From IMG/VR virus record IMGVR_UViG_2721755725_000012: a stretch of DNA of 49,338 nucleotides, one strand, 5' to 3'. A program made the position numbers. Shown piece by piece: positions 42,001-45,000 of the stretch. Position 1 is the first letter of the stretch. Each line of letters opens with the position of its first letter. This DNA comes from a virus. Lineage: Duplodnaviria > Heunggongvirae > Uroviricota > Caudoviricetes.

Positions 42001-45000
42001 AATATTCAGAACTGTGGCTGCGCATACGGGCCACCAGCAAAGGCGGCATCGCCTTTTCGATCGCCGGTAACAGAGCCTGCATTTTTTCAACAGCATCAGG
42101 GGTGTCTTTATCCAGCCAACGGAAAATTTTCTGGGTATTACGGGCCAGGGCTTCCGGATGGCTGTCGTCATACAGTTCCGGGAACGTCATTCCCAGCTCG
42201 AAATACGCTTTGGTAATTTTCGCAGCCGGTACTTTTTCGCCGTCCGGATGCGCCCAGACATTCATCGCCATGCGGATGTGTTCATGCTTGATTTTCATGA
42301 ATCAACTCCATCAGATAAGCATGCACTACAATCACCTTCAGCATGAACTACATGTGTTTGCCCCAAACGAATGCCGCTCGCATACTCAGGCCAAATAAGC
42401 TCCCAATCATGGGGTCGTAGCTCCGCCCTACTTACTTGGCCTTCCGTCGCAGATTCGATCATAAGGGCGCGGGTTGGAGATATAGCTGTTCGTCCAGACG
42501 CCATTTGCGATAAGTAAGATGACGATACACCAAGTCTGGCCGCGAATTTCTTAGCATCACCAACCCTTAATGATTTAATAAACTCTTTTAATGTCATACC
42601 TTCCTCGGTTTAGTGTTTTTTTGCGAGTTTAGTGTTTAATAAACCATTAAGTCAAGTATTTGCTTGTTTAGTGATTACTAAAGATAATTACCACATGCAA
42701 AAAAAAGAAATTCGCCGTTTACGTCTCAAGGAGTGGTTTAAAGATAAAACTCTGCCACCCAAAGAGAAGAGCTACCTATCTCAACTAATGAGTGGGAGAG
42801 CCTCGTTTGGAGAAAAAGCTGCCAGAAGAATAGAGCAAACATACGGGATGCCGGAAGGGTATCTGGATGCGGAATACGCAGAACAACCGGGGGTTTCTCC
42901 ACCACATGCAGGGTTAACGTCTAATCAACTGGAATTATTGCAGATTTTTTCAGCCTTCCCTGAGGATGAGCAACGCCAGATAATCAGCGAGTTAAAGCAG
43001 AAAAAAGAATCAATGGAAGATCTCATAGCGAGATGGATTGCGGCGCAAAAATGCCGCCGCGCCTGAGTTATAAAACCGGAGGAAACATGAATAGAGCCCT
43101 TTCACCAATGGTTTCTGAATTTGAAACCATTGAACAAGAAAACAGTTACAACGAATGGCTGCGTGCGAAAGTAGCAACGAGCCTTGCAGATCCGCGCCCA
43201 GCAATTCCCCATGACGAAGTTGAGCGCAGAATGGCAGAACGCTTTGCTAAGATGCGCAAGGAACGGAGCAAGCAGTAAAATGTTACCCGTGTTATGGCTT
43301 GAAAGCGCAGATACCGACCTAGATGATATAACTAGTTATATTGCTCGTTTCGACATAGATGCGGCTGAACGCTTATGGCAGCGATTAAGGGGTTGTGTGC
43401 TGCCGTTATCCGAACATCCGTATTTATACCCACCAAGCGACAGAGTACCTGGCTTGCGTGAGATTGTAGCCCACCCTAACTATATAATTCTATACCGCGT
43501 AACAACATCAAGCGTTGAAGTAGTAAACGTGATCCACGCAAGACGCCAGTTTCCCTAACTTTCACTACCAATAGAAACATAACAACCGCAACGACTTTAT
43601 CAAAAGCGTTGTGTTTGTTATGTCCCGCGGTTTAGTTTTTACTTGACTTAAGTTTAATGTTTATTAAACTAAAAATACCAACCCACCCCGCCCCACAGAA
43701 CGCAGGGAAATACTTCGAGTTACCCGGCAGTGGTCAGGGGTTAAGTATCCAGCCCGAGGCGTATGAACATGACGGCAGGGTTCAACTTTAATAACTATGC
43801 AGCAGGTTTTTGTTCCGCTACCCCGGCGTTAAGGGGAAACAGAGGGTTTCTCAGTGGGCGAAGTCAAACATCAGAATGGAAGGCATCCCGGGATCGGCAA
43901 AGAAGCAGCAATGGCGCTTTATATTGACATCAGCGCCATTGCAGGACAGGTAAGAGTTATCAGAGCGGTAACTAAGCGGTATGCGCCTTTACTTCAGAAA
44001 GTCTCTGGTGAGTGCACCGAAGATATTGTCAACGATTTCGTCATCGAACTGCGAGGACTCATCTTCAGTTTACAAGGTGAACCACAATTTTTGCAGATGG
44101 CTCCCGCGAAACTGTCAGAGCCCTGCGGCTTAAAGGATGTGTCAAAGACTTCGCCACCACATTCTGGGCAAGAAAACTTGATTGTATTCATAACCAATTT
44201 CCTCTCGAGTAACAGACCCCTCAGAGGATACCACCTCGCCTGACGTGGTTAAAAGCAGGCAACGCTAACCACAAGGAGCCGACATGCAGAAACGAGAACC
44301 CGTCATCATCGCGCCAGACTATACCGATGATGAACTTTATGAGTGGATGCACCAGAAAATTAATGCAGCGCAGGATCTGAAATGGGCCAATGAAGCCAGG
44401 GCTAAGCAGGCTGAAAATCTGTCCGCTCTGGAGCAGGATATCACCAATCTGGAAAAAGCAGCGGCATTAAGCATTGCCAGAATGATTACATACCCGCGTT
44501 AATAGCTAACCAACGAAGCTAAGGTTGGTAATTAAGGAGTTCTCCACGGGTGAGGTGGAGTGCGTGCGCCGGACACGGGTGAGCATACGGCACTGACAGT
44601 TTACTGAAAGGATATTTCCCTGAAAAGTCAGACCATAACGCGAAATGGCGCGGCGGTAAGTATGGAGGGGTTATTCCTTCCCCCGTTGAGGACACCGGGT
44701 TGTCAGGTTGACCATACGCTTAAGTGACAACCCCGCTGCAACGCCCTCTGTTATCAATTTTCTGGTGACGTTTGGCGGTATCAGTTTTACTCCGTGACTG
44801 CTCTGCCGCCCTTTTTAAAGTGAATTTTGTGATGCGGTGAATGCGGCTGAGCGCACGCGGAACAGTTAAAACCAAAAACAGTGTTATGGGTGGATTCTCT
44901 GTATCCGGCGTTAATTGTTAACTGGTTAACGTCACCTGGAGGCACCAGGCACCGCATCACAAAATTCATTGTTGAGGACGCGATAATGGAAACGTTATTA

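What the first reader, a model, noticed from the sequence alone, without database searches (positions are those of the whole stretch)
42598..43675. Operator-like GTTTAGTG direct repeats flanking the repressor-ParDE block
Three GTTTAGTG(T/A)TT repeats lie in the divergent region between the Cro-like gene and the DicA/RacR-type repressor. Two related copies (GGTTTAGTTTTT, AAGTTTAATGTTT) lie downstream of parE around a promoter-like TTGACT...TAAACT. The repressor may therefore control both the divergent immunity promoters and the promoter of the ydfC-dicF-dicB-exo operon.
Basis: inference. Interest (0 to 1): 0.4.

Follow-up and report, generated by a model that had tools for sequence, protein, structure and literature searches.

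The report
Known prophage repressor operators (OR and OL)
The repeats are real and are the repressor-binding sites of a lambda-like on/off switch in a cryptic E. coli prophage (CP-933P type), a switch whose repressor binding and promoters were mapped experimentally and published in 2021, so the finding is correct but not new.

Summary
GTTTAGTG occurs three times in the 49-kb window, all between the Cro-like gene and the repressor gene. Two degenerate copies flank a TTGACT-16-TAAACT promoter downstream of parE.

The locus is the immunity region of a CP-933P-type prophage: ydaT-ydaS <- OR -> paaR2-paaA2-parE2 - OL/PL ->. Both operator regions are identical to E. coli O157:H7, and all 22 published EDL933 primers mapped match exactly.

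Jurenas et al. 2021 (mBio, PMC8630535) already showed that PaaR2 and YdaS bind the 97-bp intergenic region (EMSA, DNase I footprint). They mapped PR and PRM by 5' RACE, and showed that PL933P, with related operators, is repressed about 100-fold by both proteins.

My refinement comes from 28 related loci. The functional unit is an 18-bp inverted repeat, GTTTA-N8-TAAAC (47 perfect sites; 0.28 expected), found at OR or downstream of the repressor module at OL-like positions. The TAAAC half plus T forms the -10 (TAAACT) of PL in all 19 distinct loci, and of PR in this window.

The repressor is PaaR2. It is not RacR-like and only faintly DicA-like. That PL drives ydfC-dicF-dicB-exo is plausible but inferred.

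The parts
42627..42644 (.). It covers the spacer and -10 of PR.
   Evidence: The equivalent perfect GTTTA-N8-TAAAC site is present in 23 of 25 related loci, mostly 67-69 bp upstream of the repressor ATG. It lies inside the published PaaR2 and YdaS footprint region.
42666..42683 (.). It fills the spacer between the PRM -35 and -10.
   Evidence: A homologous site, GTTTA-N7-CTAATC, lies 37-39 bp from the PR-side site in 23 of 25 loci. The right-half imperfection is conserved (T in 21 of 22 distinct sequences).
42608..42625 (.). OR copy 1: GTTTAGTGTTTTTTTGCG, with only the left half-site. It lies in the predicted 5' UTR of ydaS, between the PR -10 and the Shine-Dalgarno sequence.
   Evidence: It is not conserved in the Klebsiella or Burkholderia phage relatives. 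The span from 42608 to 42683 is 76 bp, close to the published ~78-bp PaaR2 footprint, so it is probably occupied in CP-933P (inference).
42626..42655 (-). PR promoter for ydaS-ydaT: -35 TTGACT (42655-42650), 18-bp spacer, -10 TAAACT (42631-42626).
   Evidence: Promoter scan. The paper confirms PR933P by 5' RACE and gfp fusion. The hexamer assignment is mine.
42660..42695 (+). PRM promoter for paaR2: weak -35 TTGCTT (42660-42665), 17-bp spacer, -10 GATAAT (42683-42688), start at the A of the ATG at 42695 (leaderless mRNA).
   Evidence: Sequence. Published 5' RACE and N-terminal sequencing (MQKKE) show a leaderless paaR2. TTGCTT, the 17-bp spacer and a CAAAAT-type -10 are conserved in relatives.
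42695..43066 (+). paaR2: 123-aa CI-like repressor with an N-terminal HTH and a C-terminal oligomerisation region, and no peptidase domain.
   Evidence: PDB 7NKV, 8C3K and 8C3L ('Phage repressor protein CI') match residues 1-71 at E 1e-40. Primers F-1-PaaR2 and R-PaaR2 match exactly. No Pfam family was found.
43087..43278 (+). paaA2 antitoxin.
   Evidence: Pfam PaaA2, 1e-19. PDB 3ZBE PaaA2, 5.5e-37.
43280..43558 (+). parE2 toxin.
   Evidence: Pfam ParE_toxin, 1.9e-16. RefSeq annotates it as a RelE/ParE family toxin.
42295..42597 (-). ydaS: the Cro analogue, transcribed divergently from PR.
   Evidence: Pfam YdaS_toxin and HTH_3. PDB 8C7K 'Phage antirepressor protein Cro', 1e-61. Shown to bind OR and to repress PR, PRM and PL.
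41873..42298 (-). ydaT: the CII analogue. Its published operator OM, TTGATTTTCATGAATCAA, lies at 42288-42305.
   Evidence: Pfam YdaT_toxin. Exact match to the published TTGATT-N6-AATCAA (PMC9986795).
43577..43623 (+). Long hairpin between the parE2 stop codon and OL: probably the terminator or 3' stabiliser of the immunity operon.
   Evidence: Inverted repeat I4 with 22-nt arms. Folding gives -24 kcal/mol, z -4.07, with 0 of 200 shuffles as stable. Relatives carry canonical GC-stem plus T-run terminators at the same position. There is no T-run directly after the stem here, so the function is inferred.
43630..43647 (.). OL distal site GTTTAGTTTTTACTTGAC: left half-site only, overlapping the PL -35.
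   Evidence: The identical 18-mer occurs in Burkholderia phage vB_E177, and GTTTACTTTTTGCTTTAC in Klebsiella phage 5 LV-2017. GTTTA plus ACTT(G/T)AC recurs in most relatives.
43652..43669 (.). OL proximal operator: perfect GTTTAATGTTTATTAAAC, between the -35 and -10 of PL. Its right half plus the next T forms the -10.
   Evidence: A site was assigned as OL downstream of the repressor module in 22 of 25 related loci; it is a perfect match in 20 of them, and the next base is T in all 19 distinct sequences.
43643..43670 (+). PL promoter (PL933P): -35 TTGACT, 16-bp spacer, -10 TAAACT.
   Evidence: Promoter scan. The paper states that the -35 and -10 are identical to those of PR. The cloned fragment (window 43559-43676) drives gfp and is repressed about 100-fold by PaaR2 and YdaS.
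43677..43860 (+). Predicted 5' leader of the PL transcript. It is conserved across prophages of different immunity types, and its function is unknown.
   Evidence: See the items noticed in passing.
44284..47920 (+). Downstream early-left genes in the same orientation as PL: ydfC (44284-44502), DicF sRNA (44760-44811), dicB (44986-45174), a DUF1482 gene (45171-45362) and an exonuclease gene (45455-47920).
   Evidence: RefSeq annotation of an identical copy. Rfam DicF, 76.7 bits. Pfam and NCBIfam DicB. The scan predicts no intrinsic terminator on the + strand between PL and 45400. Co-transcription from PL is inferred.

Best explanation
The repeats are the OR and OL operators of a lambda-type immunity switch in a CP-933P-type cryptic lambdoid prophage.

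Operator unit: each operator is an 18-bp inverted repeat, GTTTA-N8-TAAAC. It is read by dimers of the N-terminal helix-turn-helix domain of the CI analogue PaaR2, and also by the Cro analogue YdaS.

At OR:
- A perfect site (42627-42644) lies over the spacer and -10 of PR, so bound repressor blocks RNA polymerase and silences ydaS-ydaT.
- An imperfect site (42666-42683) fills the spacer of the weak, leaderless PRM promoter. It gives autorepression only at higher repressor levels.
- A half-site (42608) extends the protected region into the ydaS leader.

At OL, about 1 kb away and beyond paaA2-parE2 and a hairpin, a perfect site (43652-43669) plus a half-site over the -35 (43630-43647) occlude PL. 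PL points into the ydfC-dicF-dicB-exonuclease genes.

Shown in the literature: binding to OR, transcription starts of PR and PRM, and repression of PR, PRM and PL by both proteins.

Inferred here: the exact 18-bp unit, the order of site occupancy, promoter occlusion through the shared TAAAC(T) -10, and the extent of the PL transcript.
For: Identity of the locus:
- All 22 EDL933 primers mapped from the paper match the window exactly. They place the EMSA fragment at 42598-42694, the footprint fragment at 42556-42744 and the PL-gfp fragment at 43559-43676.
- Only 3 SNPs separate 1298 bp of the window from O157:H7 strain 4276, and none lies in the operator or promoter regions.
- PDB chains for the PaaR2 N-terminal domain, YdaS and PaaA2 match at E 1e-37 to 1e-61.

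Published experiments (PMC8630535):
- EMSA and DNase I footprints (PaaR2 about 78 bp, YdaS 65 bp) cover PR and PRM.
- 5' RACE was done, and paaR2 is leaderless.
- Repeats with consensus GTTTAGTAA were described.
- PL933P has the same -35 and -10 as PR and carries three operators.
- PL is repressed about 100-fold by PaaR2 and YdaS.
- Low PaaR2 represses PR and PL but raises PRM about 4-fold.

Statistics: the half-site clusters exceed all 5000 local shuffles.

Comparative footprint:
- In 28 loci (169 kb) encoding PaaR2-family repressors from Escherichia, Klebsiella, Raoultella, Citrobacter, Enterobacter, Yersinia, Xenorhabdus, Photorhabdus, Morganella, Arsenophonus, Burkholderia phage, Glomeribacter and Formosimonas, there are 47 perfect GTTTA-N8-TAAAC sites against 0.28 expected.
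- All lie either upstream of the repressor at OR or downstream of the repressor module at OL-like positions.
- The outer pentamers are invariant or nearly so, while the inner 8 bp vary.
- The HTH segment EKSYLSQL..G..SFGE.AARR is invariant across the four proteins aligned (window, phage Evi, Klebsiella phage 5 LV-2017, Burkholderia phage vB_E177), whose identity to the window protein falls to 39%.
Against: - The paper itself says the precise sequences contacted by PaaR2 and YdaS are undetermined, and that direct and inverted repeats are about equally conserved within CP-933P.
- My 18-bp unit rests on comparative conservation, not on binding data.
- No footprint or transcription-start mapping has been published for PL. 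The cloned PL fragment ends 6 bp after the -10.
- Conservation of TAAAC could partly reflect its role as the -10 element rather than as a repressor contact.
- Whether PL transcripts reach dicF and dicB is untested. DicF carries its own terminator-like 3' hairpin followed by a T-run (44797-44817).
Confidence: 0.9

Rival explanations
1. The functional units are direct repeats: GTTTAGTG(T/A)TT spaced about 19-20 bp apart. The repressor would read them head-to-tail, in the manner of the phage P2 C repressor, and the palindromic appearance would be incidental.
For: Within CP-933P, the three OR copies share 11 bases in direct register, and family D1 has five copies. The paper notes a 'striking balance' between direct and inverted repeats and defines pseudo-symmetric operators as well.
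Against: Across relatives, positions 6-8 (the 'GTG') vary freely: TAA, ATA, CTA, TAT and others occur. The symmetric TAAAC, 8 bp away, is invariant in 19 of 19 distinct PR-side sites and nearly so at OL. Copy 1 has no counterpart in the Klebsiella or Burkholderia phages. Spacing between sites differs at OR (19 and 39 bp) and OL (22 bp).
Confidence: 0.07
2. The repeats are a by-product of AT-rich promoter elements (repeated -10-like TAAACT, -35 and UP-like tracts) and are not specific protein-binding sites.
For: Both regions are AT-rich (GC 0.28-0.31). The right half-site overlaps the -10 hexamer at PR and PL.
Against: Shuffles of the same AT-rich stretches never reach the observed counts (0 of 5000). 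The left half GTTTA is equally invariant yet is not part of any promoter hexamer. Published EMSA and footprints show specific binding, with a random-DNA control that is not bound.
Confidence: 0.01
3. The OL sites are not mainly a promoter operator. They would serve chiefly as a distal anchor for DNA looping with OR through the PaaR2 octamer, tightening repression of PR and PRM, with PL control secondary.
For: PaaR2 octamerises in solution, and the authors draw the parallel with the lambda CI OL-OR loop. Two perfect operators lie 1025 bp apart.
Against: The PL fragment alone, without OR, is repressed about 100-fold. The perfect OL site sits between the -35 and -10 of PL in every relative, which is the geometry of a promoter operator. 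Looping and occlusion are not mutually exclusive.
Confidence: 0.02

Closest known systems
CP-933P (Sp12) immunity region of E. coli O157:H7: PaaR2/YdaS operators OR1-3 and IR1-4, OL1-3, and promoters PR933P, PRM933P and PL933P (Jurenas et al. 2021, mBio, PMC8630535)
   Same: It is the same element. The operator and promoter regions are identical in sequence, all primers match, and the gene order, the leaderless paaR2 and the repeat consensus (GTTTAGTAA) are the same.
   Different: The window best matches O111-type strains (100%) rather than O157:H7 (99.8%, 3 SNPs outside the operators). Here ydaT is intact, whereas the 100%-identical strain SD134209 carries an IS1203 insertion in it.
Phage lambda CI/Cro switch with OR1-3 and OL1-3, PR, PRM, PL and rexAB
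   Same: Both have divergent PR and PRM promoters with shared operators, a leaderless repressor mRNA, accessory genes after the repressor gene (rexAB there, paaA2-parE2 here), a second operator cluster at PL, a Cro analogue binding the same sites, a CII analogue with a PRE promoter, and an octamerising repressor.
   Different: PaaR2 matches no Pfam family and is not annotated as a lambda CI relative; no direct comparison with lambda CI was run. The operators are 18 bp with a GTTTA/TAAAC core rather than the 17-bp lambda sites. PaaR2 lacks the S24 self-cleavage domain, so SOS induction by RecA is not expected. The OR-OL distance is about 1 kb rather than about 2.3 kb (the lambda figure is from general knowledge).
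Qin prophage DicA/DicC control of the dicB operon (ydfABC-dicF-dicB) in E. coli K-12
   Same: A repressor gene lies upstream of an operon containing ydfC, DicF and dicB in the same orientation. DicF (76.7 bits) and DicB are clear members of their families.
   Different: The repressor is not a DicA family member: 28.5 bits against a cut-off of 101, and only over the C-terminal part. A toxin-antitoxin pair is inserted between the repressor and the promoter. DicA operator sequences were not compared here.
Rac prophage RacR/YdaS/YdaT switch
   Same: Both have YdaS- and YdaT-family Cro and CII analogues and the same YdaT box. The conserved leader downstream of the PL-like promoter is shared.
   Different: RacR and PaaR2 are not detectably similar (E 0.055). 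The operator region upstream of the leader is unrelated.
Phage P2 C repressor, which binds direct repeats
   Same: Both are small repressors without a peptidase domain, and repeats in direct register are visible.
   Different: Comparative data favour an inverted-repeat unit. No sequence relationship was tested. The statement about P2 C is from general knowledge.

Membership tests
CP-933P PaaR2/YdaS immunity switch (published element) | Gene order ydaT-ydaS <- 97-bp intergenic region -> paaR2-paaA2-parE2, followed by PL | tested here: met
   ORFs and family hits. The intergenic gap 42598-42694 is 97 bp. PDB matches to PaaR2, YdaS and PaaA2.
CP-933P PaaR2/YdaS immunity switch (published element) | Sequence identity of the experimentally used fragments (EMSA, footprint and PL-gfp) | tested here: met
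   All 22 EDL933 primers mapped match exactly. There are no differences from O157:H7 strain 4276 within 42556-42816 or 43559-43747.
CP-933P PaaR2/YdaS immunity switch (published element) | Repressor binding to the repeats and repression of PR, PRM and PL | not testable with these tools
   Taken from PMC8630535: EMSA, DNase I footprints and gfp reporters.
Lambda-type OR/OL bistable switch (works-like comparison) | Divergent back-to-back promoters sharing multiple operators | tested here: met
   The PR -35 (42650-42655, minus strand) and PRM -35 (42660-42665) are 4 bp apart, with operators on either side.
Lambda-type OR/OL bistable switch (works-like comparison) | A second operator cluster at a promoter beyond the repressor operon, pointing away from it into the early-left genes | tested here: met
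   OL at 43630-43669 with PL at 43643-43670. Conserved in 22 of 25 related loci.
Lambda-type OR/OL bistable switch (works-like comparison) | Repressor with a C-terminal S24 peptidase domain cleaved on SOS induction | tested here: not met
   PaaR2 is 123 aa with no Pfam domain. The alignment shows the S24-like extension (GDSMKPMF...) only in the Burkholderia phage relative. Seven of 25 genomic relatives are 207-222 aa long.
Lambda-type OR/OL bistable switch (works-like comparison) | OL-OR looping through repressor octamers | not testable with these tools
   PaaR2 octamerisation is reported, but looping has not been shown.
DicA repressor family (NCBIfam NF007257) | Whole-protein score above the curated cut-off | tested here: not met
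   28.5 bits against a cut-off of 101, with only residues 71-119 aligned. tblastn gives 27% identity to a phage dicA, E 5e-4.
RacR repressor | Detectable sequence similarity to K-12 RacR | tested here: not met
   BLASTP E 0.055 over 57 residues.
dicB operon (ydfC-dicF-dicB) under repressor control | Presence of DicF RNA and DicB downstream, in the orientation of the repressed promoter | tested here: met
   Rfam DicF, 76.7 bits against a gathering score of 48. DicB, 125-131 bits. ydfC is annotated in an identical copy.
dicB operon (ydfC-dicF-dicB) under repressor control | Transcript from the repressed promoter extends through dicF and dicB | not testable with these tools
   The only indication is that the scan predicts no intrinsic terminator on the + strand between 43676 and 45400.
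P2 C-type direct-repeat operators | The conserved unit is a direct repeat without a symmetric partner | tested here: not met
   The symmetric TAAAC is invariant, whereas the direct-repeat extension (positions 6-11) varies across relatives.

The most novel reading that the evidence does not exclude
The GTTTA-N8-TAAAC operators, together with the fixed PR/PRM/PL promoter layout, may define one cross-genus immunity type. It would be shared by phages of Enterobacterales and Burkholderiales whose repressors keep the same N-terminal HTH but carry either an SOS-cleavable S24 peptidase domain or the non-cleavable PaaR2-type C-terminus. If all these repressors read the same operators, the 'cryptic' CP-933P PaaR2 in EHEC would give superinfection immunity against active phages such as Evi. 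A domain swap would have converted an SOS-inducible switch into a purely bistable one stabilised by a toxin-antitoxin pair.
Probability: 0.35. Interest if true: 0.35.

Novelty: already known. Interest (0 to 1): 0.12.

Why it matters
It confirms that a reader working from sequence alone can recover a real OR/OL operator system. The biology, however, was published in 2021 for this very element.

The small increment here is a phylogenetic footprint. It addresses a point the paper left open, namely which repeat type is the operator unit, and it shows that the same operator and promoter cassette serves repressors with two different C-terminal domains across several genera.

This could guide the design of operator mutants and cross-immunity tests. 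It does not change the current understanding of prophage switches.

Tried and rejected
1. RacR-type repressor: BLASTP of PaaR2 against K-12 RacR gave E 0.055. Rejected.

2. DicA family membership: far below the NCBIfam cut-off. Rejected as membership; kept as a distant resemblance.

3. PL leader (43677-43860) as a known RNA:
- An Rfam E-value search of 41000-46000 found only DicF, a sub-threshold STnc100 match over the dicB 5' region, and two chance miRNA hits. One of those is the 43577-43623 hairpin.
- HK022 putL and putR were read and aligned and folded with each other. By eye, they show no convincing sequence or structure similarity to the leader; no formal alignment or model search against the leader was run.
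- Folding energies of the leader and its sub-parts are no better than shuffles (z +0.66, -0.60, +0.50).
- A small-ORF reading was considered, because variable positions in one conserved block fall in a single codon phase. There is no start codon downstream of the predicted transcription start, and the frame is broken in Rac and in the Actinobacillus phage. It is left unexplained.

4. Literature searches:
- A search on the PDB codes 7NKV, 8C3K, 8C3L, 8C7K and 8CO2 returned only unrelated chemistry papers.
- A 2026 Burkholderia gladioli prophage paper mentioning 'PAAR2' concerns a T6SS cluster and is irrelevant.

5. Supplementary Table S1 and Fig. S2 of the mBio paper (promoter and operator sequences) are not held as text. 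I therefore could not map the paper's IR2, OR1-3 or OL1-3 names one-to-one onto coordinates.

6. The first attempt at the PRM-site logo failed on an off-by-one spacer in the search pattern and was redone.
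Full report
**1. What is in the sequence**

The region 42598-43675 runs from the start of a minus-strand Cro-like gene to a promoter-like site downstream of a ParE toxin gene.
- GTTTAGTG occurs three times in the whole 49,338-bp window, at 42608, 42627 and 42666. All three lie in the 97-bp gap between the two divergent genes.
- The repeat finder joins them with two degenerate copies at 43630 and 43652 into one five-member family. Start-to-start spacings are 19, 39, 964 and 22 bp.
- The promoter scan finds TTGACT-16-TAAACT at 43643-43670 on the plus strand. It finds the same hexamers with an 18-bp spacer at 42655-42626 on the minus strand.
- Three copies of an 8-mer in 49 kb is not remarkable in itself (7 of 100 shuffles). 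The clustering is. Half-site matches number 6 and 4 in the two short regions, against means of 0.44 and 0.20 in dinucleotide shuffles of those same AT-rich stretches (0 of 5000 shuffles reach the observed count). No other 97-bp window in the 49 kb exceeds 2.

**2. What the locus is**

Family searches identify the genes:
- The Cro-like gene is a YdaS-family HTH protein, and its downstream neighbour is a YdaT-family protein.
- The two small genes after the repressor are PaaA2 (Pfam PF21217, 1e-19) and a ParE toxin.
- The repressor has no Pfam family and only a sub-threshold DicA match (28.5 bits against a cut-off of 101).

PDB sequence searches agree. The repressor's first 71 residues match 7NKV and 8C3K ('Phage repressor protein CI'). 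The Cro-like protein matches 8C7K ('Phage antirepressor protein Cro'). The antitoxin matches 3ZBE (PaaA2).

This is the paaR2-paaA2-parE2 three-component module of cryptic prophage CP-933P of E. coli O157:H7.
- The 1.3-kb core is 100% identical to O111-type strains and 99.8% identical to O157:H7.
- The three differences from O157:H7 strain 4276 lie at 42817, 42894 (both in paaR2) and 43748 (leader). None is in an operator or promoter.

**3. What is already known**

Jurenas et al. 2021 (mBio 12:e02947-21, PMC8630535) studied exactly this DNA from strain EDL933. They report:
- PR933P and PRM933P lie in the 97-bp intergenic region and were confirmed by 5' RACE.
- paaR2 mRNA is leaderless, with N-terminus MQKKE.
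- PaaR2 and YdaS bind the intergenic fragment specifically in EMSA.
- PaaR2 protects about 78 bp from DNase I, and YdaS protects 65 bp.
- The repeats are four 18-bp inverted repeats with half-site consensus GTTTAGTAA, plus three pseudo-symmetric 'operators'.
- Both promoters are repressed by both proteins. Low PaaR2 raises PRM about 4-fold while repressing PR.
[quoted passage not shown] PaaR2 and YdaS repress it about 100-fold.

I mapped 22 of their primers onto the window, and all match exactly. The EMSA fragment is 42598-42694, the footprint fragment 42556-42744, the PL-gfp fragment 43559-43676 and the PRE fragment 42270-42389. The companion paper's YdaT operator, TTGATT-N6-AATCAA, is present exactly at 42288-42305.

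**4. What I could add: the operator unit**

The paper states that the precise sequences bound remain to be determined, and that direct and inverted repeats are about equally conserved within CP-933P. I used relatives as a phylogenetic footprint.

Phage relatives found by tblastn:
- Phage Evi (98% identity).
- Klebsiella phage 5 LV-2017 (45% identity, no TA genes).
- Burkholderia phage vB_E177 (65% identity over the N-terminal 58 residues, fused to an S24 peptidase-like C-terminus).

A scan of one genome per species returned 25 more loci. They come from Xenorhabdus, Photorhabdus, Arsenophonus, Klebsiella, Raoultella, Citrobacter, Enterobacter, Erwinia, Pantoea, Morganella, Yersinia, Acerihabitans, Glomeribacter, Formosimonas and a Neisseriaceae bacterium.

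Results:
- In 28 loci (169 kb) there are 47 perfect GTTTA-N8-TAAAC sites against 0.28 expected.
- Every one lies in one of two places. One is upstream of the repressor, mostly 67-69 bp before its ATG (farther in the Xenorhabdus/Photorhabdus group). The other is downstream of the repressor module at an OL-like position; most are immediately followed by T and preceded by a TTGAC/TTTAC -35.
- A third site, 37-39 bp from the first, reads GTTTA-N7-CTAATC, with a conserved imperfect right half. It fills the 17-bp spacer between a conserved TTGCTT -35 and a CAAAAT-type -10 in front of the repressor gene, which is often leaderless.
- The outer pentamers are invariant in 19 of 19 distinct PR-side sites.
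- Copy 1 (42608) has no counterpart in the Klebsiella or Burkholderia phages.
- The HTH segment of the repressor is invariant in the four-protein alignment, in which identity to the window protein falls to 39%.

**5. How it most likely works**

Shown in the literature: both regulators bind OR, and both repress PR, PRM and PL.

Inferred from the anatomy:
- The right half-site TAAAC plus the next T forms the -10 hexamer TAAACT at PL in every relative examined, and at PR in this window and the close relatives I checked. A dimer on the perfect site would therefore exclude RNA polymerase.
- The perfect PR-side and PL sites should fill first, and the imperfect PRM-side site later. This fits the published pattern that low PaaR2 represses PR and PL but not PRM.
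- The -35 hexamers of PR and PRM are only 4 bp apart, back to back. The modest rise in PRM at low PaaR2 could therefore come from relief of competition with the stronger PR. It could also come from a contact made from the PR-side site, whose centre is at about -59.5 relative to the PRM start. I cannot separate these.
- The span from 42608 to 42683 is 76 bp, close to the 78-bp footprint, so the half-site copy 1 is probably occupied in CP-933P.
- A very stable hairpin at 43577-43623 (-24 kcal/mol, z -4.07) sits where relatives have canonical terminators. It probably ends or stabilises the immunity transcript before OL.

**6. The downstream operon**

The paper states that no function could be assigned to the ORFs after PL. 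In the window, PL points into:
- a conserved untranslated leader;
- a frameshifted hypothetical gene;
- ydfC (44284-44502);
- DicF (Rfam 76.7 bits, 44760-44811);
- dicB (44986-45174);
- a DUF1482 gene and an 821-aa exonuclease gene.

The scan predicts no intrinsic terminator on the plus strand before 45400. In the Klebsiella phage, OL is likewise followed by small ORFs and an exonuclease VIII gene.

**7.

- 'DicA/RacR-type repressor' is only loosely right. RacR shows no significant similarity (E 0.055), and DicA similarity is weak.
- 'ParDE' should read PaaA2-ParE2.

**8. Verdict**

The comparative definition of the operator unit, and the finding that the same cassette serves repressors with and without a peptidase domain, are modest additions. 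Interest is low.

Noticed in passing
window 43677-43860: The predicted 5' leader of the PL transcript is conserved far beyond this immunity type.
- About 115 bp (43675-43789) match roughly 3500-3700 E. coli genomes, including the Rac prophage just downstream of racR. They also match several coliphages (Evi, Tritos and others) and, at 74%, an Actinobacillus phage.
- In the annotated relatives examined, it lies directly downstream of a different repressor gene; in Rac it follows a sigma-70-like promoter.
- The mosaic junction with Rac sits right at the PL -10 and predicted start.
- Two blocks are nearly invariant: AAGTAGCCAGCCYGAGGCRTAYGAAC..GACGGCAG, and GTTCCGCY followed by a small hairpin with loop GGCGTTAA (stem CCCC/GGGG here, GCC/GGC in Klebsiella and Pantoea relatives).
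- It starts with a C-rich, G-poor run (CCAACCCACCCCGCCCCACAGAAC).
- There is no Rfam match, no visible resemblance to HK022 put (judged by eye), no better-than-shuffle folding and no usable ORF.
- Possible roles are a rut site, a nut-like site or a translational element. The function is unexplained.
   Followed up: partly
window 43577-43623: A long, near-perfect hairpin (22-nt arms; -24 kcal/mol; z -4.07) lies between the parE2 stop codon and OL. Related phages have canonical intrinsic terminators at the same position. It is probably the terminator or 3' stabiliser of the paaR2-paaA2-parE2 transcript, although no T-run follows the stem directly.
   Followed up: partly
L004 2501-3163 (Burkholderia phage vB_E177); also L021, L023, L026, L028, L029, L030: The PaaR2-type N-terminal HTH domain and its operators also occur fused to a roughly 100-residue longer C-terminus. 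In vB_E177 this carries an S24 peptidase-like motif (GDSMKPMF). The deposited annotation of vB_E177 calls only the C-terminal part (2768-3163) as a CDS, but the ORF appears to start at 2501, directly behind a leaderless-type promoter.
   Followed up: partly
window 42288-42305 and 42270-42389: The published YdaT (CII analogue) operator OM, TTGATTTTCATGAATCAA, spans the ydaS stop and ydaT start overlap. It lies inside the published PRE933P fragment.
   Followed up: yes
window 41873-42298 compared with L001 3361-5099: ydaT is intact in the window. In strain SD134209, whose immunity core is 100% identical, ydaT is split by an IS1203 insertion.
   Followed up: no
window 41400-41510: Directly repeated GGGTCAAC/GACGGGTCAA-type units (for example 'tttgacgggtcaaccgttgaggggtcaatatttgacgggtcaactgttaacgggtca') lie inside the replication-initiator-like gene (40888-41865, minus strand). 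They resemble iteron-type origin repeats within a lambda O-like gene. This was seen only by eye.
   Followed up: no
window 44809-45018: A sub-threshold Rfam match to STnc100 (40.1 bits against a gathering score of 47) covers the DicF-dicB intergenic region and the start of dicB.
   Followed up: no
window 37929-39564: Just left of the early region lie genes annotated in an identical copy as 'beta family protein' and 'sce7726 family protein'. This pair may be a cargo or defence-type insertion in the prophage.
   Followed up: no
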